Sequence record: OK254197.1 | Reading direction: 5' to 3' (one strand) | From: Escherichia phage PNJ1902 | DNA length: 64,000 nt | In this document: positions 20,246-32,818 of the stretch, piece after piece | Position numbering within the stretch: the first letter of the stretch is position 1 | Layout: every line of letters begins with the position of its first letter | Notes under the pieces: generated by a model | Database searches by the model: none | The model's input: only the letters and a program-made list of their open reading frames with translations | What the model was told of the DNA's origin: nothing | Translations under genes and position numbers: made by a program

Positions 20246-20468
20246 ATATTCATAAATTAGGGAACAGCGAGCCGATTACGCTGAGTGCAGAATCCCAACC
20301 GGAGCGCATTGAATAGAGTCGGTGGGTTAGTTGTAAAACTAGTACACAGGGGGCGGCAATCCCGGTTAGTGGCTAGAACGTGTAAAATGAGGCGTCTGAA
20401 ACCTCTCCCCTAAACTCTTCTCTAATTTATAAATAGTGGGGTGTGGAAATCACTTATGTAGTAACACT

Positions 20469-20540
20469 GCCGTCCTAGTATAATTGGTATTATCAAGCCG
20501 TAACTGGTGGAAGATGTAGGTTCGAATCCTACGGTCGGTA
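20469..20540 (+). tRNA. Possible tRNA or tRNA-like element (anticodon not resolved)
   Basis: T-arm gtagg-ttcgaat-cctac with acceptor-like pairing; anticodon arm could not be folded by hand. Confidence 0.25.
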
Positions 20541-21042
20541 AGAACTGGATAACTGGTGCTTTTAATGTAAAAGCTTCCGAGGTTAGTTGCGCACTGCCTA
20601 AACCACGCGGTAGTTGGTTCCAGACTAGCCAACCAGTCTGCTGAATAGTTTTATTACGATTTAACTATGTCCAGACTAAAGAAGAACTTTAGAAGGTATT
20701 CTAGGATAGTGAAGTTCTTTCTCCATATCGGAGTAGTTTTTCAAGCTATCCACAAAGTGGGAAATGCTGACATGAGAGATGTCACTAATGGTGCACAATA
20801 GCACAGGTAATTCGCGATAATTCCTGTTGAGTAGCAGCAAAAGGCGGGAAGTCATGACCCCAAGCCTAACCGAGTCCTCAATATACCGCAGGACATAACC
20901 ACTAAGTCACCCTGACTTAAACTGGAAAATAATAGACGTTACCGTATTTTGTCTTGAAATACTTAATGAGTGAGACTTATGACTCTCCCGGTATCGTCTG
21001 TATTTTTAAGAGTTTTTACGAGAGTTCTTAAAAATACTTAAA

Positions 21043-21117
21043 CGGGGTGTAGTCTAAGGGAGAGGCAGGAGTCTTCTAAATTCCTTTATGCAGGTTCGAA
21101 TCCTGTCACCTCGGCCA
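21043..21117 (+). tRNA. tRNA-Arg (anticodon UCU)
   Basis: Cloverleaf folded by hand: 7-bp acceptor, T-arm gcagg-ttcgaat-cctgt, anticodon loop cttctaa, encoded CCA. Confidence 0.65.
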
Positions 21118-21151
21118 ATTTTATTAACTGTAACTAAAACAAAGGAAATAT

Positions 21152-22099
21152 ATGTTTGCTACTAAAAACACTAAAGAACTGACTTATGAGCAAAAATTAA
21201 TGCGTAATATCAAACGTTGGGGTATTGGGGCTGCAGTTGGTTTGGTAGGTTTAGTTCTGGCTCTTAACTCTTACACTGTTGTTCAAGACGGTACTGTTAA
21301 AACCCAGACTTTCCTGGGTAAAGTTGACCCTAGCCCAGTATTACCCGGCTTTCATATTGTAAATCCTTTTGCTTCTTTCGATACTTTTAGTACTAAAGAT
21401 ATTGCTCTAAAATTAGATAAACTTCAGGTTCCTAGTCAGGATAAGTTTAAATCCACTGTTGACCTGACTGTTATGTTGCAGTTTGATGGTTCTAAGGCAC
21501 CGATTAACCGTATTAATGCAGGTACTCAGGATCAAGCATTAGACAAATATGTAACTGAAAAATTACTGTCTACTATTCGTGAGTTTGGTAAGTCTGTACC
21601 TAAAGCACAAGATTTATTTGATGCTAAAATTCAGGCTCAATTGCAAACCGCAATTCAACAGGAAGTTGAAGAGTATGCACGCCCATATGGTTACACAGTT
21701 AAGCAGGTGTTTCTTCAGGATATTACTTTGCCACCGGTAATCATGGAACAGGTACAGAATACCAAAGTTCGTGAAGAGCAAGTTAACGCTGCGAAAGCTG
21801 AACTTGCCCGCGTTGAACAGGAAGCACAGCAAAAAGTTAAACAAGCAGAAGCAGATCGTGAAGCTCGCAACAACCAAGCTATTGCTAATGAACGTGACGC
21901 AGATGCTAAACTGTACGCAGCTAAGAAAGAAGCTGAAGCTAACGCCGCACTGCAACGTACCATTACTCCTGAGATGATTCGTTGGAAACAACTGGAAGTT
22001 GAAATGATTCGTGCTCAGAAGTATCAAGGTGGTGTACCTCAGACTGTAGTTGGCACTGGCTATGATGGTCAAATGATTATGGATATGCGTAACAAGTAA
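21152..22099 (+). CDS. SPFH/band-7 (prohibitin/HflC-like) membrane protein
   Basis: N-terminal TM helix, SPFH-like core and C-terminal charged coiled coil (EAQQKVKQAEADREARN...). Confidence 0.5.
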   Translation: MFATKNTKELTYEQKLMRNIKRWGIGAAVGLVGLVLALNSYTVVQDGTVKTQTFLGKVDPSPVLPGFHIVNPFASFDTFSTKDIALKLDKLQVPSQDKFKSTVDLTVMLQFDGSKAPINRINAGTQDQALDKYVTEKLLSTIREFGKSVPKAQDLFDAKIQAQLQTAIQQEVEEYARPYGYTVKQVFLQDITLPPVIMEQVQNTKVREEQVNAAKAELARVEQEAQQKVKQAEADREARNNQAIANERDADAKLYAAKKEAEANAALQRTITPEMIRWKQLEVEMIRAQKYQGGVPQTVVGTGYDGQMIMDMRNK

Positions 22100-22124
22100 T
22101 AGTTACACGTAATCTTCGAACTAA

Positions 22125-22155
22125 GCCCGCGTTTTCTCCGAGAGCGCGGGCTTTT
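22125..22155 (+). terminator. Rho-independent terminator
   Basis: agcccgcg...cgcgggct + TTTT. Confidence 0.55.
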
Positions 22156-22183
22156 CTGTATTTAAGGCAAAAGAAAAAGCCCC

Positions 22184-22208
22184 TAAGTCTTTCGACTAGG
22201 GGCTTTAC
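22184..22208. terminator. Bidirectional terminator hairpin
   Basis: aaaaagcccctaagtctttcgactaggggcttt; A/T runs on both sides. Confidence 0.5.
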
Positions 22209-22219
22209 TGTTTGGTTCT

Positions 22220-22414
22220 TTAGAACCATATACTCTTGTTACAGCAACCACCCATACGGGAGGCCAATCTTGACTGAAAATCTACTCTAGGGGGCAGGAT
22301 AAGAGTAGGCTTAAAGGCAAACGGATTGAACGCCGGTATTTGCGTAAACATTGCTGGAGAGCAACAACGTGCTACAGGCATTGGGCAGCACGAAACAGAT
22401 TTTCTGCAACACAT
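22220..22414 (-). CDS. Hypothetical Cys-rich small protein
   Basis: ORF track; AGGAGG RBS 5 nt upstream of ATG on minus strand; 10 Cys in 64 aa. Confidence 0.4.
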   Translation of the reverse strand: MCCRKSVSCCPMPVARCCSPAMFTQIPAFNPFAFKPTLILPPRVDFQSRLASRMGGCCNKSIWF

Positions 22415-22423
22415 AATTCCTCC

Positions 22424-22840
22424 TTAGGAGTTATTACCACCATTTTGAGCTTTTGCAACTTGGCTTTGGCAGAAGCTATTAAACTTACCCATAAGTGATA
22501 CAAGCTGCTTCCCATCCTCTGTCTTTGCGAAGTCTTCGAAAAGGGCTAGTACTGCCTGTCCTTCCGCAGAAACCTGCGGTTGTTGGGTTTGTTGCTGAAC
22601 TTGCTGCTGCGGCATCTGTTGCTGCATTTGTTGGGGCATTTGCGACTGCCCGCTCATTTGCTGCATCATTTGCATAGGACTCACACTTCCAGGGTTTTGC
22701 TGGAGTTGTTGCTGCATCTGTTGCGCTTCTGCTAAACGCTGTTGCAATTGTTGTAAGTAGGGGTTATCCAGACCCGGAATGGGCTGCTGGGAGCCCATAC
22801 TTTGATTAAGTCCGTTATTTACAAAACCATATTTACTCAT
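22424..22840 (-). CDS. Gln-rich low-complexity protein
   Basis: ORF track; long Q/M-rich repeats. Confidence 0.45.
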   Translation of the reverse strand: MSKYGFVNNGLNQSMGSQQPIPGLDNPYLQQLQQRLAEAQQMQQQLQQNPGSVSPMQMMQQMSGQSQMPQQMQQQMPQQQVQQQTQQPQVSAEGQAVLALFEDFAKTEDGKQLVSLMGKFNSFCQSQVAKAQNGGNNS

Positions 22841-22861
22841 AATGGGCTCCTCCCCTTAATA

Positions 22862-23848
22862 TTAAGCCGGCAGTTTAGCCTGCAGACCAGCCAGAGTCTG
22901 AGTGATAGCACCAAGACTTAAAGCGATTTGATTAATTACCTGACCGTTAGCACCACTACCCGCAGCGATTGCTTCACGTAGGCGACATGCGTCTAACTCG
23001 TCCTGGATACGTGCAGTAGTTACACCAGCGATCGCAGTCTGAAGTTCACAGCAACATTCAGCGATCTGACGTTCCAGAGAGTTCTGGTTAGCACACATCT
23101 GAGCCTGAACAGCGGCAAACTGGTTATTAGTTTGTAAAGTCTGCTGGAAAGCGATCTGTGCAGAATCAAACTTATCTTGTGCACGAGCTATCTGGTTAGC
23201 TGCGAAAGATTGATCAATCTGGCGAGAAAGATCGAACTGACCCTGAATAACGTTGCGAGTTTCCTGGCAGATCTGATTAGACAGATTAGCACCTGTACCA
23301 TAGATCGTAGTTAGTACAGACTGAGTATCACGGCTCTGGTTTTGGGATGTCTGGCTAAAACCATTGTTAACTGCGCTTAAAACAGCCCCAGTACCCTGGT
23401 TAGCTTCTGTACGAGTAGTGTTAATAGCTGCTAGAATACTAGCGGTATCTTGATTCTGAAGTACTGCATCAACTGCGCTACCATCACCAACTACACCACG
23501 TCCACCGAATCCACCGAAACCACCGAATCCGCCTGTTAATAGAGCACCGATTAGGATAGCTCCGAATAGTCCCATACCTTCACCACCGAAAGCACCTGCG
23601 TTTGCTGGGTAACCACCTAGTAGGCCAGGGAAGCCACTAGTGAATACGTTTACTGGTTCTTGCATTTTATGTTTTCCATGTTTATGACAATGTTCATCAT
23701 CGTCATCTTCTTCATCATCATGTTCACGATGTTTTTCTTCGTAGGCTCTGACCTTCTCCCACTTTTTCTTATCTGATTCCTCGTGACGGTGCAGTTCTGC
23801 TGCAACGCTAGCGACGGTCTCAGGACTCTTAGCTACTTCTTCTGTCAT
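22862..23848 (-). CDS. Hypothetical protein with His/acidic N-terminus, Gly-rich hydrophobic segment and Q/N-rich coiled-coil region
   Basis: ORF track; upstream divergent promoter-like TTGACA-17-TAAAGT on minus strand. Confidence 0.5.
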   Translation of the reverse strand: MTEEVAKSPETVASVAAELHRHEESDKKKWEKVRAYEEKHREHDDEEDDDDEHCHKHGKHKMQEPVNVFTSGFPGLLGGYPANAGAFGGEGMGLFGAILIGALLTGGFGGFGGFGGRGVVGDGSAVDAVLQNQDTASILAAINTTRTEANQGTGAVLSAVNNGFSQTSQNQSRDTQSVLTTIYGTGANLSNQICQETRNVIQGQFDLSRQIDQSFAANQIARAQDKFDSAQIAFQQTLQTNNQFAAVQAQMCANQNSLERQIAECCCELQTAIAGVTTARIQDELDACRLREAIAAGSGANGQVINQIALSLGAITQTLAGLQAKLPA

Positions 23849-24055
23849 TTTTTAACACCTCCTAGTATATAGAAAATGTGTGTCTCTTTGATCACTCATC
23901 CATAACATATACTTTACACTACCCCAACAAAAATGTCAAGGGGTCTTTAAAAATTGCCCCCGGATTTTTAGTGGGGTCACAAATTTTGGTCCTCACCACT
24001 TATCTGCTACCCTTAAGTGCCCTATGATTTTCCTCTAAAAAGTTAAAAATTTTGA

Positions 24056-24084
24056 TTGCTTGAATGCTAAATTCTCTGTATAAT
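24056..24084 (+). promoter_or_regulatory. sigma70-type early promoter (TTGCTT-17-TATAAT)
   Basis: Read from sequence. Confidence 0.55.
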
Positions 24085-24114
24085 ATATCTATAAATTTGA
24101 GAGAGGAATAAGAT

Positions 24115-24633
24115 ATGAATGTTGATGAGCTAACACAGCACCTCTTATCTAGAGGATTTGATACAGATAAATATCATTGCTGGTTAAGCCCGGAAGGGTG
24201 GCTAACAGTCCCATTGTATGACTTCTCTGGGATGTTGCGGGGCTATCAGACGTATAATCCTTCTGCTCCAAAAGGGCATGGTAAGTGCCCCTTTGAGGCT
24301 AAATATTTTACCTACTCCACTACACAGTGTGTATGGGGACTAGAAACTCTCAATGGAGATGAAAAAGTAGTATTGATTGCTGAATCTGTATTTAAGGCAG
24401 TTGCATTACATAATGCTGGTTATCCAGCCCTAGCAATGTTGGGTTCTACCCCAGGAAAAGCGTTATTAAAGCAACTGAAATTACTACCTTTTAAATTGGT
24501 AGCTGTCGGGGATAATGATCCTGCGGGTGAAAAATTTGCTAGAAAATTGAACGGCTTTGTTTCTCCTGTAGATGTGGATGAGATGTCTACCGAAAACTTG
24601 AAAAATTTTCTTGCTATGAAGCTAAATTTCTAA
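24115..24633 (+). CDS. Toprim-domain protein (primase-like), putative
   Basis: VVLIAESVFKAVAL (Toprim Glu) and AVGDNDPAGEKFA (DxD) motifs. Confidence 0.45.
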   Translation: MNVDELTQHLLSRGFDTDKYHCWLSPEGWLTVPLYDFSGMLRGYQTYNPSAPKGHGKCPFEAKYFTYSTTQCVWGLETLNGDEKVVLIAESVFKAVALHNAGYPALAMLGSTPGKALLKQLKLLPFKLVAVGDNDPAGEKFARKLNGFVSPVDVDEMSTENLKNFLAMKLNF

Positions 24634-24654
24634 TATAATATATCTTATAAATTC

Positions 24655-24743
24655 GGAAGAATAGCATAACGGTATTGCAGCAGATTGCTAATCTGTCGGT
24701 TTGAAATATAGCCTTGTGGGTTCGATTCCCACTTCTTCCGCCA
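24655..24743 (+). tRNA. tRNA-Ser (anticodon GCU), class II
   Basis: Acceptor ggaagaa/ttcttcc, T-arm gtggg-ttcgatt-cccac, anticodon loop ttgctaa, long variable arm, encoded CCA. Confidence 0.65.
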
Positions 24744-24749
24744 GATTTT

Positions 24750-24827
24750 GGTTCTCAAGCTCATATGGTATGAGCACCCGGCTCATAACCGGAAGGTACG
24801 TAGGTTCGAATCCTCGGGGAGCCACCA
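24750..24827 (+). tRNA. tRNA with CAU anticodon (Met or Ile2)
   Basis: Acceptor ggttctc/gggagcc, D-arm gctc...gagc, anticodon loop ctcataa; T-stem partly mismatched. Confidence 0.5.
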
Positions 24828-25330: not shown

Positions 25331-25407
25331 GGGGGTGTAATCGAATTGGCATAGGTACTGGACTTAAAATTCAGGTTTTGTGGGTTCGAATCCCACCACC
25401 CCTACCA
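25331..25407 (+). tRNA. tRNA (anticodon tentatively UAA, Leu-like)
   Basis: Acceptor gggggtg/cacccct, T-arm gtggg-ttcgaat-cccac, CCA encoded; D-arm non-canonical. Confidence 0.45.
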
Positions 25408-25819: not shown

Positions 25820-25849
25820 TTGCCTTTTGCTTTAAATTTCTGATATAAT
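25820..25849 (+). promoter_or_regulatory. sigma70-type promoter (TTGCCT-18-TATAAT)
   Basis: Read from sequence. Confidence 0.45.
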
Positions 25850-26191: not shown

Positions 26192-26220
26192 TTGCTCAGT
26201 GCCTTAAAACTTGGTATAAT
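26192..26220 (+). promoter_or_regulatory. sigma70-type promoter (TTGCTC-17-TATAAT) upstream of tRNA block
   Basis: Read from sequence. Confidence 0.5.
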
Positions 26221-26286: not shown

Positions 26287-26374
26287 TGGGGAAATATTCT
26301 GTAAGTGGTAGCAGAGCTGACTGTAAATCAGTTGTCATTGCGACTCGGGTGGTTCGACTCCATCTTTCCCCACC
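26287..26374 (+). tRNA. tRNA-Tyr (anticodon GUA), class II
   Basis: Acceptor ggggaaa/tttcccc, anticodon loop ctgtaaa, T-arm ggtgg-ttcgact-ccatc, CCA. Confidence 0.65.
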
Positions 26375-26380
26375 AATTTA

Positions 26381-26457
26381 AGTCCTGTTAGACAAACTGG
26401 TAAAGTCACTACCCTTTCAAGGTAGGATTTGCGGGTTCGATCCCCGCACAGGACGCC
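26381..26457 (+). tRNA. tRNA-Glu (anticodon UUC)
   Basis: Acceptor gtcctgt/acaggac, anticodon stem ctacc/ggtag, loop ctttcaa, T-arm gcggg-ttcgatc-cccgc, CCA. Confidence 0.65.
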
Positions 26458-26465
26458 AATTCCTG

Positions 26466-26542
26466 CATTCCTAGAGTGTTACTGGACAGCATGTCGGTCT
26501 CCAAAACCGTACGGTCTAGGTTCGAGTCCTAGTAGGTTTGCC
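26466..26542 (+). tRNA. tRNA-Trp-like (anticodon CCA), acceptor stem imperfect
   Basis: Anticodon arm cggt-ctccaaa-accg, T-arm ctagg-ttcgagt-cctag; 5' boundary uncertain. Confidence 0.4.
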
Positions 26543-26548
26543 AAAATT

Positions 26549-26641: not shown

Positions 26642-26914
26642 ATGCATCCTGAAAACTTCTTTATTTACTGCGCGGATAAGTCGCTGAAACGTAGAATTAA
26701 CAAAGTCTATCATTATCGTGCTAGTCAACAGCCTTATGTATACGCTTTTGACGGTGATCACATTCCATTAGAACAATTATCTTGTGATTACATGATATTG
26801 AAGAACTTTGACGAGACAAAGATCTCAAGCGTTCACAATCGACAGAATCCATTAACGTGGAAATATAAGAAGAAAAAGAAAGGCATCAAATTCTTAAAAA
26901 ATGTAGTTGCTTAG
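26642..26914 (+). CDS. Hypothetical protein
   Basis: ATG 26642 after GAAGGAG; in-frame part of track ORF 26627..26914. Confidence 0.45.
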   Translation: MHPENFFIYCADKSLKRRINKVYHYRASQQPYVYAFDGDHIPLEQLSCDYMILKNFDETKISSVHNRQNPLTWKYKKKKKGIKFLKNVVA

Positions 26915-26935
26915 TTTCCAAAAGTTCTGTATAAT
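26907..26935 (+). promoter_or_regulatory. sigma70-type promoter (TTGCTT-17-TATAAT)
   Basis: Read from sequence. Confidence 0.55.
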
Positions 26936-26983: not shown

Positions 26984-27059
26984 CGACCGTTGGCTGAATG
27001 GCTTAGGCGAAGGATTGCAAATCCTTTTTATGTGAGTTCAAATCTCATGCGGTCGTCCA
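26984..27059 (+). tRNA. tRNA-Cys (anticodon GCA)
   Basis: Acceptor cgaccgt/gcggtcg, anticodon stem aagga/tcctt, loop ttgcaaa, T-arm gtgag-ttcaaat-ctcat, CCA. Confidence 0.65.
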
Positions 27060-27211: not shown

Positions 27212-27294
27212 GGGTCGTTAGCCAAGCGGTTTGGCGGTGGACTGTTAATCCATGTCGAAAGACAACGTAGGTTCGAATCCTACACGGCCCGCCA
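27212..27294 (+). tRNA. tRNA-Asn-like (anticodon GUU) with unusually long variable arm
   Basis: Acceptor gggtcgt/acggccc, D-stem gcca/tggc, anticodon loop ctgttaa, hairpinned 13-nt variable arm, CCA. Confidence 0.55.
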
Positions 27295-27591: not shown

Positions 27592-27668
27592 GCGACAGGG
27601 GCTGGCTTGGTAATGGTACTCCCCTGTCACGGGAGAGAATGTGGGTTCGAATCCCATCGGTCGCGCCA
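27592..27668 (+). tRNA. tRNA-Asp (anticodon GUC)
   Basis: Anticodon stem ctccc/gggag, loop ctgtcac, T-arm gtggg-ttcgaat-cccat, CCA. Confidence 0.65.
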
Positions 27669-28434: not shown

Positions 28435-28463
28435 TTGCTATTCTGCTTAATTCTCTGTATAAT
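28435..28463 (+). promoter_or_regulatory. sigma70-type early promoter (TTGCTA-17-TATAAT)
   Basis: Read from sequence. Confidence 0.55.
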
Positions 28464-28655: not shown

Positions 28656-28658
28656 ATT

Positions 28659-28736
28659 CTCCGTGTAGCTCAGTTTGGCCAGAGCGTTTCGTTTGGGGCG
28701 ATAGGGTCGGGGGTTCAAATCCTCCCACGGAGACCA
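28659..28736 (+). tRNA. tRNA-Pro (anticodon UGG)
   Basis: D-arm gctc...gagc, anticodon loop tttgggg, T-arm ggggg-ttcaaat-cctcc, CCA. Confidence 0.65.
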
Positions 28737-28742
28737 AACAAT

Positions 28743-28820
28743 TGCGGGTTAGATCTCTGGTAGAGATCGCTAGTCTCATAAGCTAGAAAGAGGTAGGTTC
28801 GATTCCTGCACCCGCTTCCA
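28743..28820 (+). tRNA. tRNA with CAU anticodon (Met/Ile2), 1-72 mismatch
   Basis: D-arm gatc...gatc, anticodon stem ctagt/gctag, loop ctcataa, T-arm gtagg-ttcgatt-cctgc. Confidence 0.55.
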
Positions 28821-28840
28821 TTTTAATAGAGGATTTCGAA

Positions 28841-29001: not shown

Positions 29002-29009
29002 TTACTAAT

Positions 29010-29088
29010 AGATCGCTAGCTCAATAGGTTTAGTAGCATCCGACTTTTAATCGGAAGGTTCTGGGTTCGAGTCCCAGGCGATCTACCA
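29010..29088 (+). tRNA. tRNA-Lys (anticodon UUU)
   Basis: Acceptor agatcgc/gcgatct, anticodon stem tccga/tcgga, loop cttttaa, T-arm ctggg-ttcgagt-cccag, CCA. Confidence 0.7.
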
Positions 29089-29107
29089 ATTTCAAGAAAA
29101 ACGCAGT

Positions 29108-29135
29108 TGCTTGATGCTTAATTTCTTGTTATAAT
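29108..29135 (+). promoter_or_regulatory. sigma70-type promoter (TTGCTT-16-TATAAT)
   Basis: Read from sequence. Confidence 0.5.
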
Positions 29136-29182
29136 ATTTATATAAATTGATGAGGAGAGATCCTCATCATAGTTCACTAAGG

Positions 29183-29350
29183 TATTAGCTCGACCTAGGA
29201 CTGGCTGCCAAAAAGCACGATCCCTTCTACTTGGGAGAAGTTCTAGATTAGTCCACTAGATTCAGCGGCAACTGAATAGTGTATCGGGTTTGCGAGATGA
29301 CGCAGTTCCTTCCGCTCGAAGCGAAGGTGCTGTAGTTACGCCGAGCTAAT
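29183..29350 (+). ncRNA. Candidate structured RNA closed by 9-bp terminal helix
   Basis: attagctcg...cgagctaat complementarity; multiple internal hairpins; no ORF. Confidence 0.25.
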
Positions 29351-29373
29351 AGCCTTAGTAAACTAAAGATTTT

Positions 29374-29448
29374 GGGCGGTTAGTTTATCTGGGAAAATAC
29401 CTGACTTGCACTCAGGAGTGAGGAGTTCGACTCTCCTACTGTCCACCA
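29374..29448 (+). tRNA. tRNA-Ala (anticodon UGC)
   Basis: Anticodon stem cctga/tcagg, loop cttgcac, T-arm aggag-ttcgact-ctcct, CCA. Confidence 0.65.
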
Positions 29449-29466
29449 AATTAAAGGGTATGTAGT

Positions 29467-29967
29467 ATGAAGGTAGCTAAAAATGGGAGAAAAGATAACT
29501 TAAATGAGTTAGAAATATTCCTCCACAATAACAAACTAGACGTAACCGCTAGTAATTACATGCAAATAGCTCTATGGTATAATGGGTATATAGTTAGGAA
29601 GGCCAATCCTAGTAAGGATAAGAAGTCAAATACATACCAAAAGAGACTAGAGCATAGCTATCAAAGATCCCTAAGAGTAGTACAGCTTTATTGTTATATC
29701 AATAATATAAATAATAAGCTGGGATATATTTATATAATATCTAATCCAGCTTTTCCAGGCTGGTTTAAAGTAGGAGCAGCCAAAGATGCTGAGACTAGAT
29801 TAAATACCTATCAAACATACTCCCCTTTTCGGGACTATGTATTAGAGTATTATAAACTAGTAGATAATTATGAACTCAAAGAAAAAGAAATCCTAAGTTC
29901 TTTTTCATCTAGAAATAATGAGTGGGTTCATGCTCCACTTGAAGAAATAATTGCTTGCGTGGCGTAA
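29467..29967 (+). CDS. GIY-YIG / T5orf172-type nuclease-domain protein (homing-endonuclease-like)
   Basis: GYIYIISNPAFPGWFKVGAAKD...R...Y..Y...E motif; 3' end overlaps tRNA-Leu by about 15 nt. Confidence 0.5.
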   Translation: MKVAKNGRKDNLNELEIFLHNNKLDVTASNYMQIALWYNGYIVRKANPSKDKKSNTYQKRLEHSYQRSLRVVQLYCYINNINNKLGYIYIISNPAFPGWFKVGAAKDAETRLNTYQTYSPFRDYVLEYYKLVDNYELKEKEILSSFSSRNNEWVHAPLEEIIACVA

Positions 29968-30035
29968 TTGGTAGACGCGCGATCCTTAGGAGTTCGTGTT
30001 AATTCGTGTGGGTTCGAGTCCCTCCGCAAGCACCA
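29953..30035 (+). tRNA. tRNA-Leu (anticodon UAG), class II
   Basis: Acceptor gcttgcg/cgcaagc, D-loop aattggtagac, anticodon loop cttagga, long variable arm, CCA. Confidence 0.65.
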
Positions 30036-30039
30036 AATT

Positions 30040-30112
30040 TGATGGTCAGAGTAAATTAAACCTACTATCTCGGTTGAGCTGTTTTAATGGGTTCGAATCC
30101 CAGCGAGGCGTA
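30040..30112 (+). tRNA. Possible degenerate tRNA or pseudo-tRNA
   Basis: T-arm-like tggg-ttcgaat-ccca but no complementary acceptor strand found. Confidence 0.2.
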
Positions 30113-30147
30113 ACTGCCTGGTGTGATAGGGGCATCATCTTATTATT

Positions 30148-30238
30148 GGAAGAGCAAATCGAATTGGCGACGAAAACCGCTTGGAAAGTGGCTGACTGGT
30201 AAAACGGCTTGAGAGTTCAAATCTCTCCTCTTCCGCCA
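30148..30238 (+). tRNA. tRNA-Ser (anticodon GGA), class II
   Basis: Acceptor ggaagag/ctcttcc, anticodon loop ttggaaa, T-arm gagag-ttcaaat-ctctc, CCA. Confidence 0.65.
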
Positions 30239-30250
30239 AACAATTTATAT

Positions 30251-30345
30251 GGTAGGTCAATCCAACGGCTGGCGCTGGACTCCGACTTGAAATCGGTTGA
30301 TCGTAGTGATACGGTGTAAGGGTTCGATCCCCTTACCTACCTCCA
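30251..30345 (+). tRNA. tRNA-Ser (anticodon UGA), class II
   Basis: Acceptor ggtaggt/acctacc, anticodon loop cttgaaa, T-arm aaggg-ttcgatc-ccctt, CCA. Confidence 0.6.
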
Positions 30346-30350
30346 AATCT

Positions 30351-30482
30351 TGAAGTATGCCGGAATTGGTAGACGGGGCTGCCTAAAAGGTTTATAGAGA
30401 ACATCCACTCTCTACAACATACCTCATAAAGCGGCTGAGATAAATGGTCTATCTCGTGAAGGTTCAAGTCCTTCTGCTTCTT
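30351..30482 (+). ncRNA. Long tRNA-like element with Leu-type D-arm and canonical T-arm, about 55-nt insertion
   Basis: D-loop aattggtagac, T-arm gaagg-ttcaagt-ccttc, acceptor-like pairing of ends. Confidence 0.3.
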
Positions 30483-30711
30483 GATACATCTATGGCTCAA
30501 AGTGTAACGGTGCTATTTGATGCTCTTAGTAAGACTTCCCCGACATGCGTTCGGGAGTAAGCTGCTAAGGCTAGGGTAGAAGAGTTTCGGAGAGCCGCCA
30601 CAATTGAAAATTCGTACTCGTCTTGAGCTGCGTGCAATAGGAGATAACTTGATTAGTATTCTAGAACATGCTAATTGAGGAAGGTTTCGCTAACCCTGCG
30701 AGTTTTCAATT

Positions 30712-30788
30712 GTGGCTATATCATAATTGGTTAATGATCCTGATTGTGAATCAGGCCTATGTGGATTCGAATTCCACTAGCCACCCCA
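30712..30788 (+). tRNA. tRNA-His (anticodon GUG)
   Basis: Acceptor gtggcta/tagccac, anticodon stem cctga/tcagg, loop ttgtgaa, T-arm gtgga-ttcgaat-tccac, CCA. Confidence 0.7.
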
Positions 30789-30813
30789 AATTAACTTAAA
30801 TAGGAAATAAAAT

Positions 30814-31008
30814 ATGGCTGATTTCTGCAAACAATGCTCCATTGATATGTGGGGCAGAGATACTGGTGATCTTTCTGGTTTGATTACAGAAGCTGAAGTT
30901 AAAGAAGGCTACGGTGCTGTTGTGATTTGCGAGGGATGCGGAGTTATTCGAGTAGATCATGAAGGCAAACGTTTGGAAGAATCTGAGCCAACAACAATTT
31001 TTCCGTAG
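30814..31008 (+). CDS. Small Cys-rich (zinc-binding-like) protein
   Basis: ORF track; CKQC...CEGC. Confidence 0.45.
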   Translation: MADFCKQCSIDMWGRDTGDLSGLITEAEVKEGYGAVVICEGCGVIRVDHEGKRLEESEPTTIFP

Positions 31009-31020
31009 AATAAAAATTAT

Positions 31021-31096
31021 TGGGATGTAGATCAATTGGCAGATCGTCGGCCTCTGACTCCGAAGGTTCCACGTTCGATCCGTGGCATCCCAGCCA
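31021..31096 (+). tRNA. tRNA-Gln (anticodon CUG)
   Basis: Acceptor tgggatg/catccca, loop ctctgac, T-arm ccacg-ttcgatc-cgtgg, CCA. Confidence 0.6.
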
Positions 31097-31102
31097 AATA
31101 AT

Positions 31103-31178
31103 TGGAGAGTAGTGTAACGGTTAGCACAACGGCCTTTGACTCCGTTAATGGTAGGTTCGATTCCTCCTTCTCCAGCCA
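31103..31178 (+). tRNA. tRNA-Gln (anticodon UUG)
   Basis: Acceptor tggagag/ttctcca, D-arm gtgt...caca, loop ctttgac, CCA. Confidence 0.55.
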
Positions 31179-31186
31179 AACAATAA

Positions 31187-31262
31187 GCGGTTAAGCACAC
31201 GGGTTGTGCCGCAGGCCTTCCAAGCCTCGCTGAGTAGGGTTCGATTCCCTCTAGCCGCTCCA
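31187..31262 (+). tRNA. tRNA-Gly (anticodon UCC)
   Basis: Acceptor gcggtta/tagccgc, loop cttccaa, T-arm taggg-ttcgatt-ccctc, CCA. Confidence 0.55.
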
Positions 31263-31278
31263 ACTTTAAGGAAACGTT

Positions 31279-31533
31279 ATGCACGTTTTTGAATTTCGTA
31301 ATAAAAGTACCGATAAACGAGTTATTGTTATTGGGGAAACATACCGAGCATACGAACAAACTGACGGCTCTGTTATCCTGAATGATGAGAAAGGAGGTTT
31401 TAGCTTTTATCCAGAAGAACCTTATGAAGAGTTTCGAAAACAATTTAACCTAGACTGGAGAAAGCATTTAAACACTGTTGCTTCATCTGTAATACTGCCA
31501 ACTACCAGTACTGAGTCCTCTAATGGCCGATAA
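31279..31533 (+). CDS. Hypothetical protein
   Basis: ORF track. Confidence 0.5.
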   Translation: MHVFEFRNKSTDKRVIVIGETYRAYEQTDGSVILNDEKGGFSFYPEEPYEEFRKQFNLDWRKHLNTVASSVILPTTSTESSNGR

Positions 31534-31687
31534 CCTAAAAGTAAAGATCGATAAACAAAAGAAACGTGTAGAAGTAGAGATTGGTGAAGAACGTGTAGCC
31601 TTCACCTTTGAATTTCTACAACAAATGGCAATGACAGTTATGACTGACAAGTCTCCTATTATTGAAAAAGAAATCCCGTTGGAATAA
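31523..31687 (+). CDS. Hypothetical 54-aa protein
   Basis: ATG overlapping previous stop; below ORF-track cutoff. Confidence 0.3.
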   Translation: MADNLKVKIDKQKKRVEVEIGEERVAFTFEFLQQMAMTVMTDKSPIIEKEIPLE

Positions 31688-31695
31688 CGGGTTCT

Positions 31696-31782
31696 GCTGG
31701 GTTGGCAGAATGGTTGAATGCACCTGATTTGTAATCAGGAGGAGTAATCCCGTTGCAGGTTCGAATCCTGTGCCCAGCACCA
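31696..31782 (+). tRNA. tRNA-Thr-like (anticodon UGU) with long hairpinned variable arm
   Basis: Acceptor gctgggt/gcccagc, anticodon stem cctga/tcagg, loop tttgtaa, T-arm gcagg-ttcgaat-cctgt, CCA. Confidence 0.55.
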
Positions 31783-31797
31783 ATTTAAGGATTAGTA

Positions 31798-31964
31798 TGT
31801 TTAAACTCCTAGTAGTTATCTGGTATAGCCAATCAAACAGAGCTAATACCTCTCACGTTATAGACTTTAATACTAAAAATGAAGCTGAAGAAGCATATGC
31901 TAATTTAATACAACGTAATAAAGAATCTCGTAGTATAGTTTATGAAGTGACTAAACTTTATTAA
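31798..31964 (+). CDS. Hypothetical 55-aa protein
   Basis: ATG 31798 after AAGGA; track ORF 31770 start would overlap tRNA. Confidence 0.35.
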
Positions 31965-31973
31965 AAATTCATT

Positions 31974-32001
31974 TGCCTTCTCTCTTATTTCTTGTTATAA
32001 T
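31974..32001 (+). promoter_or_regulatory. sigma70-type promoter (TTGCCT-16-TATAAT)
   Basis: Read from sequence. Confidence 0.5.
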
Positions 32002-32031
32002 ATTTATATAAATTAATGAGAGGGAAACCAA

Positions 32032-32325
32032 ATGAAACGTTATCTTTCTGTTATGTTCCAAACTGGTGGTCAACGCTATACTTATGAATTTCCTAGCTCT
32101 TGGAAGATCAAAGAAGGTGATCAAGTAGTAGTGTTAACACCGCGCGAGGGTTTCAAGGTAGTAACGGTTAAGCAAGTATTTCCAAAAGATCGTGAACCAG
32201 CTAAAGGCATTCGCTATAAGATGATTCATGGTGTAGTTCGTCAAGTACCACGAGCGGAAGTCGAAATCAAAGTAGATAAAGATGGTAAACTTAAATATAC
32301 CTCTTGCTTAGACGAGTTGCTATAA
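32032..32325 (+). CDS. Hypothetical protein
   Basis: ORF track; GAGGGAAACCAAATG. Confidence 0.5.
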   Translation: MKRYLSVMFQTGGQRYTYEFPSSWKIKEGDQVVVLTPREGFKVVTVKQVFPKDREPAKGIRYKMIHGVVRQVPRAEVEIKVDKDGKLKYTSCLDELL

Positions 32326-32531
32326 TGAGAATTACTTTCACAGAAAAGATTATGGGTAATGGTGTTATGATCATTACCGCATGGGATGGTAATCAGTGGT
32401 GTAGTGTTTCAGGTATTAAGCCTGAAGAACAAACACTAGAAAATATCTCAAAGATTAAGCGAAGAATGGCAGAACGTGCACGACTTCCAGGTGCGCCTAG
32501 AAATGGTAAACGTTCTGCAATTAAATATTAA
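32325..32531 (+). CDS. Hypothetical protein
   Basis: ATG 32325 overlapping previous stop. Confidence 0.4.
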   Translation: MRITFTEKIMGNGVMIITAWDGNQWCSVSGIKPEEQTLENISKIKRRMAERARLPGAPRNGKRSAIKY

Positions 32532-32532
32532 T

Positions 32533-32609
32533 GCTTCGGTAGCTTAGCGATCTAAAGCACTCGGCTGATAACCGAGAGATCGGGGGTTTAAATCCCTCCC
32601 GGAGTACCA
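32533..32609 (+). tRNA. tRNA-Ile (anticodon GAU)
   Basis: D-arm gctt...aagc, anticodon stem ctcgg/ccgag, loop ctgataa, T-arm ggggg-tttaaat-ccctc, CCA. Confidence 0.65.
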
Positions 32610-32705
32610 AATTTAGGAATTAAGACTATGCGTCCAGGAAAGTTTAAAAAAGCTAATTGGTCTAAAGAGTATAAAGAATACTTACTTAGTCTAGTAAAAC
32701 ATAAC

Positions 32706-32781
32706 AGTTAGTTGGCAGAGTGGTTATGCACCTCCTTCATACGGAGCGACTACAGTGGTTCAAATCCACTACTAACTACCA
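32706..32781 (+). tRNA. tRNA with CAU anticodon (Met/fMet/Ile2)
   Basis: Acceptor agttagt/actaact, loop ttcatac, T-arm agtgg-ttcaaat-ccact, CCA. Confidence 0.6.
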
Positions 32782-32818
32782 TTAAAATAGCTAGAGATAG
32801 CTAAATTTAGGAGCAGCT

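What the first reader, a model, noticed from the sequence alone, without database searches (positions are those of the whole stretch)
20270..32800. Very large tRNA cluster (about 25 tRNAs) including three CAU-anticodon tRNAs and class-II-like tRNAs with unexpected anticodons
Hand folding gives tRNAs for Arg, Ser (x3), Tyr, Glu, Trp, Cys, Asn, Asp, Pro, Lys, Ala, Leu, His, Gln (x2), Gly, Thr, Ile and three with anticodon CAU. Two of them (27212-27294, anticodon GUU; 31696-31782, anticodon UGU) appear to carry long hairpinned variable arms, normally restricted to Leu, Ser and Tyr. If real, this is unusual and could affect aminoacylation identity. Transcription appears driven by repeated strong promoters (20217, 26192, 26907, 28435, 29108).
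Basis: seen in the sequence. Interest (0 to 1): 0.6.

Follow-up and report, generated by a model that had tools for sequence, protein, structure and literature searches.

The report
T5-like phage tRNA cluster, long-armed variants
This is the well-known tRNA gene cluster of a T5-like phage (25 tRNA genes), but its asparagine and threonine tRNAs really do carry an extra hairpin arm that such tRNAs normally lack, and that arm may help them escape bacterial defence enzymes that cut tRNAs.

Summary
The window comes from a T5-like phage (Tequintavirus, 97.8% identical to Salmonella phage ABTNLsp9). Positions 20468-32781 carry 25 tRNA genes, all on the + strand and all with an encoded CCA, plus tRNA-like remnants. 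Repeated TTGCnn-17-TATAAT promoters lie between them.

Three genes have a CAU anticodon. The T5 record annotates their counterparts as Ile2, initiator Met and elongator Met.

ARAGORN and Rfam both call Asn(GUU) at 27212-27294 and Thr(UGU) at 31696-31782. Their variable regions are 13 and 15 nt long and form 3-bp hairpins capped by tetraloops. These hairpins covary across many phage tRNAs. They are frequent in viral contigs and nearly absent from cellular genomes.

T5 itself carries different alleles at the same loci. Its versions have short variable loops and mutated anticodon stems. The window's alleles keep host-identical anticodon stems, including the published PARIS (AriB) and P2-OLD cleavage sites, and add the hairpin.

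The window's Thr tRNA is identical to that of phage Bas33, which a 2026 preprint reports as a strong counter-defence against OLD.

The cluster and its genes are known. The extra arm is not mentioned in the literature I could search, and its protective role is an inference, not a result.

The parts
20468..20541 (+). tRNA-like element with no clear anticodon and no CCA; not counted as a tRNA
   Evidence: Rfam RF00005 35.5 bits. ARAGORN finds it only at a relaxed threshold, with an odd 8-bp acceptor stem. It is 74/74 identical in T5_ev212, where it is annotated 'tRNA'. It lies in the region that T5 annotates as stable RNA 'RNAX'.
21043..21117 (+). tRNA-Arg(UCU)
   Evidence: 75/75 identical to the T5 tRNA-Arg.
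24655..24743 (+). tRNA-Ser(GCU), class II
   Evidence: identical to T5 Ser3.
24750..24827 (+). CAU tRNA no. 1, counterpart of the T5 gene annotated tRNA-Ile2(CAU)
   Evidence: Rfam 40.3 bits; ARAGORN at relaxed threshold. It is 76/78 identical to T5 tRNAI2, and the two differences form one compensatory change in the anticodon stem.
25331..25407 (+). tRNA-Leu(UAA), 77 nt, with a short 5-nt variable loop (class-I-like)
   Evidence: It has no counterpart in T5.
26289..26375 (+). tRNA-Tyr(GUA), class II
   Evidence: 92% identical to the T5 Tyr tRNA.
26382..26458 (+). tRNA-Glu(UUC)
26467..26543 (+). tRNA-Trp(CCA)
26984..27059 (+). tRNA-Cys(GCA)
27212..27294 (+). tRNA-Asn(GUU), 83 nt, with a 13-nt variable region at 27254-27266 (hairpin GUC-GAAA-GAC)
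   Evidence: ARAGORN and Rfam at 59.0 bits with an insertion in the variable region. The variable stem covaries in 14 relatives: 4 of 4 pairs change on both sides and 94% of cells are paired. It is 83/83 identical in T5_ev212 and ABTNLsp9 but only 62% identical to the T5 Asn tRNA, which is a 78-nt class I tRNA.
27592..27668 (+). tRNA-Asp(GUC)
28659..28736 (+). tRNA-Pro(UGG)
28743..28820 (+). CAU tRNA no. 2, initiator type (U1-U72 mismatch)
   Evidence: It is 78/78 identical to the T5 gene annotated 'initiator tRNA fMet'.
29010..29088 (+). tRNA-Lys(UUU), 79 nt, with an enlarged D loop; positions 36-41 read UAAUCG
   Evidence: It is only 71% identical to the T5 Lys tRNA, whose positions 36-41 read UAAACC.
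29374..29448 (+). tRNA-Ala(UGC)
29953..30035 (+). tRNA-Leu(UAG), class II
30148..30238 (+). tRNA-Ser(GGA), atypical; found only at a relaxed threshold
   Evidence: It is 90/91 identical to an annotated tRNA-Ser in T5_ev212.
30251..30345 (+). tRNA-Ser(UGA), atypical
   Evidence: Rfam tRNA-Sec model 38.3 bits, below its gathering score. ARAGORN at relaxed threshold. Annotated as tRNA-Ser-TGA in relatives.
30712..30788 (+). tRNA-His(GUG)
31021..31096 (+). tRNA-Gln(CUG)
31103..31178 (+). tRNA-Gln(UUG)
31187..31262 (+). tRNA-Gly(UCC)
   Evidence: ARAGORN at relaxed threshold. It is 75/76 identical to T5 Gly1.
31696..31782 (+). tRNA-Thr(UGU), 87 nt, with a 15-nt variable region at 31740-31754 (hairpin GGA-GUAA-UCC)
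   Evidence: ARAGORN draws the variable stem. Rfam gives 58.9 bits with an insertion in the variable region. The variable stem covaries in 17 relatives: 3 of 3 pairs change on both sides and 100% of cells are paired. It is 87/87 identical to the tRNA-Thr of phage Bas33/HildyBeyeler and 60% identical to the T5 Thr tRNA, which is 75 nt and class I.
32533..32609 (+). tRNA-Ile(GAU)
32706..32781 (+). CAU tRNA no. 3, counterpart of the T5 gene annotated tRNA-Met
   Evidence: 76/76 identical to T5 tRNAM(CAU).
20217..20245 (+). promoter-like site, TTGCTA-17-TATAAT
24056..24084 (+). promoter-like site, TTGCTT-17-TATAAT
24611..24639 (+). promoter-like site, TTGCTA-17-TATAAT, immediately upstream of Ser(GCU)
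25820..25849 (+). promoter-like site, TTGCCT-18-TATAAT
26192..26220 (+). promoter-like site, TTGCTC-17-TATAAT, upstream of the Tyr-Glu-Trp-Phe block
26907..26935 (+). promoter-like site, TTGCTT-17-TATAAT, upstream of Cys and Asn
28435..28463 (+). promoter-like site, TTGCTA-17-TATAAT, upstream of Pro and fMet
29107..29135 (+). promoter-like site, TTGCTT-17-TATAAT, upstream of Ala
31973..32001 (+). promoter-like site, TTGCCT-17-TATAAT

Best explanation
Positions 20468-32781 are the early-region tRNA gene cluster of a T5-like phage (Demerecviridae, Tequintavirus).

**How it most likely works.** Host sigma-70 RNA polymerase most likely transcribes 25 tRNA genes, interleaved with small ORFs, from about nine near-consensus promoters. 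Every tRNA carries an encoded CCA end. The set covers 19 amino acids and includes initiator, elongator-Met and Ile2-type CAU tRNAs. The phage therefore brings an almost complete decoding set, which can replace host tRNAs that are limiting or are destroyed during infection.

**The Asn and Thr alleles.** The Asn(GUU) and Thr(UGU) genes are one of at least two allele families circulating at the same loci in T5-like phages.
- T5 itself has short-loop tRNAs whose anticodon stems are mutated at the sites cut by the Toprim defence nucleases AriB (PARIS) and P2-OLD.
- The window's alleles keep host-identical anticodon stems but carry a 3-bp hairpin capped by a tetraloop in the variable region.

They most likely remain Asn and Thr acceptors and act as nuclease-resistant substitutes for host tRNA-Asn and tRNA-Thr(UGU).

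**Shown versus inferred.**
- Shown here: the gene set, the structures, the covariation, the allele dimorphism, the enrichment in phages, and identity to the Bas33 tRNA-Thr.
- Shown by others: the Bas33 Thr(UGU) tRNA strongly counters OLD, and Bas33 needs only an added tRNA-Lys to escape PARIS.
- Inferred: the extra arm itself hinders nuclease binding or cleavage.
For: **Identity of the cluster.**
- The region is 97.8% identical to Salmonella phage ABTNLsp9 with the same gene order.
- It is syntenic with the T5 record, which annotates the tRNAs, promoters P10a to P16-17 and stable RNAs.
- 13 of the 25 tRNAs are at least 92% identical to their T5 counterparts.

**Structure.** ARAGORN and Rfam agree on both long-arm tRNAs. 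The variable stems covary as strongly as the canonical stems.

**The arm is under selection as a structure, mostly in phages.**
- Of 68 distinct long variable regions in phage Asn tRNAs, 56 fold into a hairpin of at least 3 bp, against 29% of shuffled sequences. They use 29 different stem sequences.
- For Thr the figures are 26 of 41, against 14% of shuffles.
- One long-arm Asn pattern hits 81 stretches of IMG/VR but only 7 in 185,579 cellular genomes. At least 3 of those 7 lie in phage-like tRNA arrays.

**Allele dimorphism.**
- T5 Thr is 75 nt with positions 36-41 reading UAAGCA. T5 Asn is 78 nt with UAAGUU.
- The window's Thr reads UAAUCA and its Asn UAAUCC, the same as E. coli thrU and asnT. 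The window's Thr also keeps C28-U-G30 and C40-A-G42, the OLD motif described in PMC12445682.
- Both allele families are common in sequenced phages. About 97 records carry the long-arm Thr and about 310 the T5-type. About 284 carry the long-arm Asn and about 134 the T5-type.

**Function, from the literature.**
- AriB cuts E. coli tRNA-Lys(UUU), Thr(UGU) and Asn(GUU) between positions 40 and 41. Phage versions of the three rescue growth (PMC12409363).
- OLD's prime target is tRNA-Thr(UGU) (PMC12445682).
- Bas33 Thr(UGU), identical to the window's gene, gives strong counter-defence against OLD. E. coli thrU gives none and the T5 allele only partial rescue (preprint 10.64898/2026.07.10.737580).
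- Bas33 carries long-arm Thr and Asn and lacks Lys(UUU). It is rescued from PARIS by tRNA-Lys alone.
- There is a precedent: the T5 tRNA-Tyr is reported to resist retron-Eco7/Septu cleavage because of its distinctive variable loop (PMC13096335).
Against: - No experiment has tested the extra arm. The Bas33/window Thr also differs from E. coli thrU at pair 27:43, at position 32, and in the D arm, T arm and acceptor stem. Any of these could confer resistance.
- The preprint showed stability under OLD for the Bas32 tRNA, which has a short variable loop, not for the Bas33 tRNA.
- Bas32's short-loop allele rescues as well as Bas33's, so the arm is not necessary for rescue.
- Allele replacement relative to T5 is not confined to nuclease targets. 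Eleven tRNAs are 75% identical or less, including Pro, Ala, Gln and Trp.
- In a less biased viral sample, long arms also occur sporadically on His, Ile(UAU), CAU, Val and Cys tRNAs. Only 9 of 101 Asn and 2 of 42 Thr(UGU) tRNAs there have them.
- GNRA caps are also common in the variable arms of phage Ser and Leu tRNAs.
- Expression, processing and charging of the window's tRNAs were not tested.
Confidence: 0.7

Rival explanations
1. The cluster serves only to boost or rebalance translation capacity, through codon-usage compensation or replacement of tRNAs lost when the phage degrades the host genome. On this reading the extra arms on Asn and Thr are tolerated, functionally neutral or merely stabilising insertions carried along with the alleles.
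For: - The set is nearly complete (19 amino acids), which looks like general supply rather than targeted replacement.
- Long arms occur sporadically on many isoacceptors in phage tRNA arrays.
- About a third of phage Leu tRNAs lack the long arm. Phage tRNA architecture is therefore generally loose.
- Short-loop alleles work as well in the OLD rescue assay.
Against: - A neutral insertion would not keep a hairpin through 29 (Asn) and 13 (Thr) different stem sequences, with both-sided changes at every pair.
- The feature is almost absent from cellular genomes.
- In T5-like phages the long arm goes with a host-like anticodon stem, and the short loop goes with a mutated stem, at both loci.
- Published work shows phage Thr, Asn and Lys tRNAs are needed specifically against PARIS and OLD.
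Confidence: 0.3
2. The divergent alleles, including the insertions in the variable region, are maintained mainly by a conflict at the DNA level. Homing endonucleases encoded in the tRNA region cut the tRNA genes of co-infecting relatives, and sequence-divergent alleles are immune target sites.
For: - T5 annotates three HNH endonucleases (F-TflI, F-TflII, F-TflIV) inside the cluster, and BASEL relatives annotate several 'putative homing endonucleases' there.
- The window has an ORF with a T5orf172 nuclease-family domain at 29467-29967 that overlaps the start of Leu(UAG).
- Eleven of the 25 tRNAs are replaced by alleles no closer to T5's than unrelated tRNAs are, and the alleles assort independently between phages.
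- The same long-arm Asn allele also occurs in roughly 167-kb Klebsiella and Enterobacter myoviruses.
- The T4 endonuclease SegB acts in this way in the T4 tRNA region (PMC2330249, listed; not read in detail).
Against: This explains the turnover of alleles. It does not explain why the inserted segment is constrained as an RNA hairpin in unrelated phages, nor why these anticodons are the ones involved. It is compatible with the main explanation rather than exclusive of it.
Confidence: 0.25
3. The extra arm is a handle for a phage-encoded or host factor other than AriB or OLD. It could direct processing, modification or selective use of the phage tRNA, or block a different nuclease such as colicin E5-type or PrrC/RloC-type anticodon nucleases.
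For: - A hairpin capped by a tetraloop is a typical protein- or RNA-docking element.
- A small Toprim-domain protein (24115-24633, the homologue of T5.076) is encoded inside the cluster.
- From my own memory, Asn is also a colicin E5 target.
Against: There is no evidence for any such partner. GNRA caps are equally ordinary in Ser and Leu variable arms. The long-arm alleles are not linked to any particular neighbouring ORF that I could see.
Confidence: 0.12
4. The long arms switch aminoacylation identity, for example to Ser, Leu or Tyr, so that AAY or ACA codons are recoded.
For: - SerRS recognises a long variable arm (PMC7609411).
- The window's Asn tRNA has G73, G2-C71 and C11-G24, which from memory are SerRS determinants. 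The Thr tRNA has A73, as Leu and Tyr tRNAs do.
Against: - The anticodon and acceptor determinants of AsnRS (G34 U35 U36, G73) and ThrRS (G1-C72, C2-G71, G35 U36) are present, and they are conserved in nearly all long-arm relatives.
- The stems are 3-4 bp, against mostly 4-6 bp in phage Ser tRNAs.
- The identical Thr tRNA restores phage growth when the only host reader of ACA is destroyed.
- Hundreds of lytic phages keep these genes alongside ordinary codon usage.
Confidence: 0.05

Closest known systems
tRNA gene region of bacteriophage T5 (AY543070; curated annotation from the Ksenzenko laboratory)
   Same: - The gene order is the same: Arg ... Ser-Ile2 ... Tyr-Glu-Trp-Phe ... Cys-Asn-Asp ... 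Pro-fMet-Lys ... Ala-Leu-Ser-Ser-His-Gln-Gln-Gly-Thr-Ile-Met.
- The promoter type is the same, and tRNA-like stable-RNA regions are present in both.
- 13 tRNAs are at least 92% identical.
   Different: - Eleven tRNAs are replaced by unrelated alleles. Among them, Asn is 83 nt here against 78 nt in T5, Thr is 87 nt against 75 nt, and Lys also differs.
- Leu(UAA) is present here and absent from T5. Val is absent here.
- The HNH endonuclease genes hegA, hegC and hegD are absent, and a T5orf172-domain ORF is present instead.
Phage tRNAs that neutralise PARIS (AriB) and P2-OLD: T5 tRNA-Lys/Thr/Asn (PMC11464382, PMC12409363) and phage Thr(UGU) tRNAs (PMC12445682; preprint 10.64898/2026.07.10.737580)
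   Same: The anticodons are the same (UUU, UGU, GUU), and the tRNAs are phage-encoded in the same cluster. The window's Thr is identical to the Bas33 Thr that was tested against OLD.
   Different: The published resistance determinants are substitutions in or near the cleavage site, or a shortened anticodon stem. The window's Thr and Asn keep the host sequence at those sites and differ by an added arm. None of these papers mentions the arm: the word 'variable' occurs zero times in each.
Class II tRNAs (bacterial Leu, Ser, Tyr, Sec)
   Same: The variable region is longer than 10 nt and forms a stem-loop between the anticodon and T arms. Stem length (3-4 bp) is like that of phage Leu and Tyr arms.
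   Different: The anticodons and identity elements are those of Asn and Thr, which are class I-type tRNAs in cells. Stems are shorter than in Ser tRNAs.
T5 tRNA-Tyr, which resists retron-Eco7/Septu (PtuAB) cleavage of the variable loop (PMC11555353, PMC13096335)
   Same: A phage tRNA from the same cluster whose variable-region difference is credited with resistance to a defence nuclease.
   Different: In that case the nuclease cuts the variable loop itself, in a tRNA that is class II anyway. [quoted passage not shown]
allo-tRNAs and selC-like tRNA-Cys (Mukai et al. 2017, as reviewed in PMC7609411)
   Same: tRNAs with long variable arms and anticodons outside Leu/Ser/Tyr.
   Different: Those have 8/4 or 9/3 acceptor/T-stem geometry and serine identity, and they are bacterial. 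The window's tRNAs have the canonical 7/5 geometry and are viral.

Membership tests
tRNA (Rfam RF00005) | Cloverleaf with 7-bp acceptor, D, anticodon and T arms, scoring above the curated threshold | tested here: met
   Asn scores 59.0 bits and Thr 58.9 bits against a gathering score of 29. ARAGORN draws both cloverleaves. In all, 22 of the 25 genes pass the Rfam gathering score. Ser(GGA), Ser(UGA) and Gly(UCC) are found only at relaxed thresholds.
tRNA (Rfam RF00005) | Base pairs supported by compensatory change in homologues | tested here: met
   In the Asn and Thr family alignments, 98% of cells are paired and 18 pairs have changes on both sides. None of 500 shuffles reaches these values.
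tRNA (Rfam RF00005) | Expressed, processed and aminoacylated | not testable with these tools
   The only evidence is indirect: rescue by the identical Bas33 tRNA-Thr reported in a preprint.
Class II tRNA | Variable region of 10 nt or more forming a stem-loop | tested here: met
   The regions are 13 nt (Asn) and 15 nt (Thr), each with a 3-bp stem and a tetraloop. The stems covary.
Class II tRNA | Isoacceptor is Leu, Ser, Tyr (bacteria) or Sec | tested here: not met
   The anticodons are GUU and UGU. The Asn- and Thr-type acceptor and discriminator elements are conserved.
Phage-encoded nuclease-evading replacement tRNAs (anti-PARIS, anti-OLD) | Same anticodon as a host tRNA targeted by the nuclease, and encoded by a phage | tested here: met
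   GUU, UGU and UUU tRNAs are present. The targets are defined in PMC12409363 and PMC12445682.
Phage-encoded nuclease-evading replacement tRNAs (anti-PARIS, anti-OLD) | [quoted passage not shown] | tested here: not met
   Thr positions 28-31 and 39-42 and Asn positions 36-41 are identical to E. coli thrU and asnT. The T5 alleles are mutated there.
Phage-encoded nuclease-evading replacement tRNAs (anti-PARIS, anti-OLD) | Resists cleavage and rescues phage or cell growth | not testable with these tools
   The literature reports strong rescue against OLD by the identical Bas33 Thr tRNA, and Bas33 needs only tRNA-Lys under PARIS. Direct cleavage resistance of this allele has not been reported.
allo-tRNA / selC-like tRNAs | 8/4 or 9/3 acceptor/T-stem geometry | tested here: not met
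   Both tRNAs have 7-bp acceptor and 5-bp T stems.
T5-like (Tequintavirus) tRNA cluster | Synteny and sequence identity with the tRNA regions of T5-like phages | tested here: met
   The region is 97.8% identical over 7 kb to ABTNLsp9. 1107 phage records match, and the gene order is shared with T5, T5_ev212 and Bas32-34.

The most novel reading that the evidence does not exclude
A short, structured variable-arm hairpin grafted onto class-I-type tRNAs is a widespread and so far undescribed phage strategy for escaping nucleases that cut the anticodon stem (AriB, OLD and relatives). It works by steric or geometric exclusion and leaves the host-like anticodon stem intact, so decoding and modification are undisturbed. 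It is an alternative to mutating the cleavage site, and the two solutions coexist as alleles in T5-like phages. The converse case, Leu tRNAs that have lost the long arm, could be the same trick against nucleases that recognise class II tRNAs.
Probability: 0.3. Interest if true: 0.7.

Novelty: new variant of a known kind. Interest (0 to 1): 0.45.

Why it matters
tRNA-cleaving defence systems such as PARIS, OLD, retron-Eco7/Septu, PrrC and the Schlafens, and the phage tRNAs that counter them, are a very active topic. The open question in those papers is how the nucleases tell host tRNAs from phage tRNAs.

The authors of the AriB study report that restoring the host cleavage site in the T5 tRNA-Lys does not restore cutting, and they conclude that distal determinants exist.

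The alleles in this window are a natural test case. Their anticodon stem is host-identical, they carry an added arm, and one of them is already known to rescue strongly against OLD. If the arm is the determinant, three things follow:
- It gives a simple structural rule for nuclease evasion.
- It explains why tRNAs with non-canonical arms are enriched in phages.
- It offers a design principle for nuclease-resistant tRNAs.

If it is not the determinant, the finding is still a documented structural oddity of otherwise ordinary and already annotated phage genes.

Tried and rejected
1. **Classifying the CAU tRNAs by BLAST against E. coli genomes.** Two queries gave no match and the third only weak partial hits. 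Global identity to E. coli metZ, metT and ileX was uninformative at 58-68%. My own guess that the third CAU tRNA was Ile2 is contradicted by the curated T5 annotation, which I adopted.
2. **Assuming the window's genes were the ones tested.** I first assumed that the T5 Lys, Thr and Asn tRNAs tested against PARIS were the same genes as in the window. They are not. T5 carries different, short-loop alleles. 'T5_ev212' carries the window-type alleles.
3. **Using Bas34 as a natural experiment.** Its own tRNA-Asn is reported as insufficient under PARIS. However, the annotated gene is a deletion chimera: the Asn 5' part, including the long arm, is fused to the 3' end of the fMet gene. It is therefore uninformative.
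4. **Predicting the variable stem with RNAalifold.** On a MAFFT alignment it did not predict the stem, because arm lengths differ and the columns were out of register. I re-aligned subsets and counted pairs for an explicit structure. These subsets were chosen from sequences with a recognisable hairpin, which favours the result.
5. **Origin by a one-base anticodon shift from Tyr(GUA) or Ser(UGA).** There is no similarity signal. All comparisons fall between 57% and 67% identity.
6. **A special role for the GNRA cap.** I weakened this idea, because GNRA loops are also common in the variable arms of phage Ser and Leu tRNAs.
7. **The ARAGORN call at 28166-28233.** Rejected: it is 68 nt, has mismatched stems and has no Rfam hit.
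8. **Literature searches for a prior description.** I found no description of long-arm Asn or Thr tRNAs in phages. Older subscription papers are not in the searchable library, so a prior description cannot be excluded.

Full report
**What the region is**

A 7-kb query from the region matches 1107 phage records. The best match is Salmonella phage vB_SalS_ABTNLsp9, at 97.8% identity over the full length. All the top hits are Salmonella or Escherichia phages of 102-120 kb, and every one whose taxonomy I read (ABTNLsp9, T5_ev212) is Demerecviridae, genus Tequintavirus.

The gene order is that of the phage T5 tRNA region. The curated GenBank record for T5 annotates the tRNAs, early promoters, stable RNAs and homing endonucleases there. 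The cluster as such is therefore long known.

**Inventory of tRNA genes**

- ARAGORN at default settings finds 21 tRNAs.
- Rfam at its gathering score finds 23. The additions are a CAU tRNA at 24750-24824 and a tRNA-like element at 20469-20540.
- At relaxed thresholds ARAGORN also finds Ser(GGA), Ser(UGA) and Gly(UCC). Relatives annotate all three.
- I reject a 68-nt call at 28166-28233.

The result is 25 tRNA genes for 19 amino acids, with no Val. All are on the + strand and all have an encoded CCA. Phe(GAA) and Leu(UAA) were missed.

The three CAU tRNAs are 97-100% identical to the T5 genes that the depositors annotate as tRNA-Ile2(CAU), initiator tRNA-fMet and tRNA-Met. The initiator assignment fits a U1-U72 mismatch that can be read directly from the sequence.

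**Promoters**

Four more sites lie in the region. The core pattern occurs 25 times in the window against 0.45 expected by chance, and it nearly always lies on the strand of the local genes. This is a consensus match, not evidence of expression. It agrees with the promoters annotated in the T5 record.

**The two atypical tRNAs are real**

The covariance-model alignment puts the extra bases in the variable region.

- Asn(GUU), 27212-27294, has the variable region GUCGAAAGACAAC.
- Thr(UGU), 31696-31782, has the variable region AGGAGUAAUCCCGUU.
- Each forms a 3-bp stem capped by a GNRA tetraloop.

**The hairpin is conserved as a structure**

Two pattern scans of IMG/VR recovered many unrelated viral contigs with Asn(GUU) or Thr(UGU) tRNAs whose variable regions are long.

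| | Distinct long variable regions | Fold into a hairpin of 3 bp or more | Same measure in shuffles | Different stem sequences |
|---|---|---|---|---|
| Asn | 68 | 56 | 29% | 29 |
| Thr | 41 | 26 | 14% | 13 |

I then counted pairs for an explicit structure on aligned subsets. Every pair of the variable stem shows changes on both sides: 4 of 4 for Asn (94% of cells paired) and 3 of 3 for Thr (100% paired). This is as good as the canonical stems. The subsets were chosen from sequences with a recognisable hairpin, so one search is the unbiased figure.

Within T5-like phages, the Bas33 Asn tRNA has AUCC-GCAA-GGAU where the window has GUC-GAAA-GAC.

**The feature is viral**

The same long-arm Asn pattern that hits 81 stretches of IMG/VR hits only 7 in one genome from each of 185,579 bacterial and archaeal species. 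Three of those seven lie in dense, phage-like tRNA arrays.

In a less biased viral sample, 9 of 101 Asn(GUU) and 2 of 42 Thr(UGU) tRNAs are long. His, Ile(UAU), CAU, Val and Cys tRNAs are occasionally long too. Conversely, roughly a third or more of phage Leu tRNAs lack the long arm. Loose variable-arm architecture is thus a general property of phage tRNA arrays. The window shows it three times: Asn, Thr, and the 77-nt Leu(UAA).

**The key comparison with T5**

T5 itself does not have these genes. At the same loci it carries a 75-nt Thr(UGU) and a 78-nt Asn(GUU) with ordinary variable loops. These are only about 60% identical to the window's genes.

| tRNA | Positions 36-41 |
|---|---|
| T5 Thr | UAAGCA |
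| T5 Asn | UAAGUU |
| T5 Lys | UAAACC |
| Window Thr | UAAUCA |
| Window Asn | UAAUCC |
| E. coli thrU | UAAUCA |
| E. coli asnT | UAAUCC |

The E. coli genes were fetched for this comparison. The window's Thr also keeps the C28-U-G30 and C40-A-G42 motif.

Both allele families are common among sequenced T5-like phages. At 90% identity or more, the long-arm Thr is in about 97 records and the T5-type in about 310. The long-arm Asn is in about 284 records and the T5-type in about 134. The alleles assort independently. Bas32 has the long-arm Asn with a short-loop Thr, and Bas33 has both long.

A near-identical long-arm Asn also occurs in Klebsiella and Enterobacter myoviruses of about 167 kb.

**Why this matters: the literature**

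- AriB, the Toprim nuclease of PARIS, cuts E. coli tRNA-Lys(UUU), Thr(UGU) and, more weakly, Asn(GUU) between positions 40 and 41. The T5 versions of the three together neutralise PARIS. The authors attribute resistance to substitutions around the cut site. They also find that restoring the host site in the T5 tRNA-Lys does not restore cleavage, so distal determinants must exist (PMC12409363).
- The prime target of P2-OLD is tRNA-Thr(UGU). [quoted passage not shown]
- A 2026 preprint reports that Thr(UGU) tRNAs of T4, Bas32, Bas33 and HK446 give strong counter-defence against OLD. T5's gives only partial rescue and E. coli's gives none (10.64898/2026.07.10.737580).

I fetched Bas33 (HildyBeyeler, MZ501074). 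Its tRNA-Thr is 87/87 identical to the window's. Bas33 also has a long-arm Asn and lacks Lys(UUU). This fits the report that tRNA-Lys alone rescues it from PARIS.

So an RNA identical to the window's Thr tRNA works as a counter-defence tRNA even though it carries the host sequence at both published cleavage sites. None of these papers mentions the variable arm. The word 'variable' is absent from all four. A 2020 review of non-canonical tRNA structures does not mention phages.

**Interpretation**

The best-supported reading is this. The cluster supplies a near-complete phage-encoded decoding set from strong early promoters. Its Asn and Thr genes are functional Asn and Thr tRNAs that stand in for host tRNAs destroyed by defence nucleases. 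Three points support retained identity:
- G73 is present in all 34 long-arm Asn tRNAs listed.
- G1-C72 and C2-G71 are present in nearly all long-arm Thr tRNAs.
- Stems are shorter than in Ser tRNAs.

That the added arm itself confers resistance is an inference. It rests on three things. The first is the either/or pattern in T5-like phages: short loop with mutated stem, or long arm with host-like stem, at both loci. The second is the need for distal determinants. The third is the precedent of the T5 tRNA-Tyr variable loop.

Several points count against it:
- The arm has never been tested.
- The Bas33/window Thr differs from thrU elsewhere as well.
- Bas32's short-loop allele rescues equally well.
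- Allele replacement relative to T5 affects 11 tRNAs, not only nuclease targets.
- Long arms occur on other isoacceptors.
- GNRA caps are ordinary in Ser and Leu arms.

The homing endonucleases in the region offer a DNA-level explanation for the turnover of alleles. They do not explain the RNA-level constraint on the hairpin.

**Verdict**

The cluster and its genes are already known and annotated. The suggested change of amino-acid identity is unlikely. The structured extra arm on Asn and Thr tRNAs is a genuine, conserved, phage-enriched feature that the literature I could search does not describe. It marks alternative alleles of tRNAs at the centre of current work on tRNA-targeting immunity. 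I rate it a new variant of a known kind, of moderate interest, with a directly testable hypothesis attached.

Noticed in passing
window 25331-25407; also L280:14837-14913, L282:14565-14641, L002:10501-10577: Leu(UAA) is a 77-nt tRNA with a 5-nt variable loop, so it is a Leu anticodon on a class-I-like body. It has A73 and no counterpart in T5. Bas32, Bas33 and T5_ev212 also carry a 77-nt class-I-like Leu(UAG), where the window and T5 have 83-85-nt class II versions. In the viral sample roughly a third or more of Leu tRNAs are short.
   Followed up: partly
window 24115-24633 (+): A 172-aa ORF with a Toprim-like domain (Pfam Toprim_2, 24.9 bits) lies immediately upstream of Ser(GCU), and a promoter-like site sits inside its 3' end. 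It is the homologue of T5.076. A small phage Toprim protein inside a cluster of tRNAs that are targets of host Toprim nucleases is intriguing.
   Followed up: no
window 29467-29967 (+): A 166-aa ORF with a T5orf172/MUG113 nuclease-family domain overlaps the 5' end of the Leu(UAG) gene by 15 nt. It is probably a homing-endonuclease-type mobile gene. T5 has HNH endonucleases elsewhere in the cluster instead.
   Followed up: partly
window 28264, 30090, 30461 (T-arm-like motifs) and 20468-20541: Perfect T-arm motifs (for example ACAGGTTCGAGTCCTGT and GAAGGTTCAAGTCCTTC) lie outside any called tRNA, in non-coding gaps. These gaps correspond to the 'tRNA-like stable RNAs of unknown function' annotated in T5 (RNA1, RNA2, RNAI, RNAIII, RNAIV, RNAX). 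They may be tRNA remnants or tRNA-like RNAs.
   Followed up: partly
window 29010-29088: The tRNA-Lys(UUU) is a third allele type. It is 79 nt with an enlarged D loop, and positions 36-41 read UAAUCG. It keeps U39, the position whose change to A abolishes AriB cleavage in E. coli tRNA-Lys, and differs from the host only at position 41 near the cut. At least four Lys(UUU) alleles circulate in T5-like phages. Whether this allele resists AriB is unknown.
   Followed up: partly
L283:12605-12681 (phage Bas34 / SelmaRatti, MZ501103): The annotated 77-nt 'tRNA-Asn' of Bas34 looks like a deletion chimera. The body is a long-arm Asn tRNA lacking its 5' acceptor strand, and it is joined in the T arm to the 3' end of the fMet gene. 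That could explain why Bas34's own Asn tRNA was reported as insufficient under PARIS.
   Followed up: partly
L270:1693-1780 and L272:4198-4287 (metagenome-assembled genome contigs from the genome collection): These dense, phage-like tRNA arrays contain 88-90-nt tRNA-Lys(UUU) genes next to long-arm Asn tRNAs. So the third PARIS target also exists in a long form. L272 additionally carries tmRNA calls.
   Followed up: no
window 22100-23850: This is a block of minus-strand ORFs (22424-22840 and 22862-23848) inside the otherwise plus-strand region. G+C is higher here, 45.6% against about 39%. The block is bounded by a strong 14-bp hairpin terminator at 22123-22153. T5 annotates a bidirectional terminator and a major single-strand nick at this position.
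   Followed up: no
window 29089-29373 and 27669-28658: Compared with its closest relative ABTNLsp9, the window lacks tRNA-Val(UAC) with the following ORF, and tRNA-Lys(CUU). The cluster varies by insertion and deletion of whole tRNA cassettes as well as by allele replacement.
   Followed up: partly
window 7500-44200: The TTGC-N19-TATAAT promoter pattern occurs 25 times in the window against 0.45 expected. Twenty-two of them are on the + strand between 7.5 and 44 kb, which marks the whole early region as densely promoter-studded.
   Followed up: no
window 21152-22099, 33056-33424, 19765-20208: The neighbouring ORFs encode an SPFH/Band 7 protein and a GrcA-like glycyl-radical protein. A third ORF of 147 aa has a weak YqeY-like match, below the Pfam threshold.
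   Followed up: no
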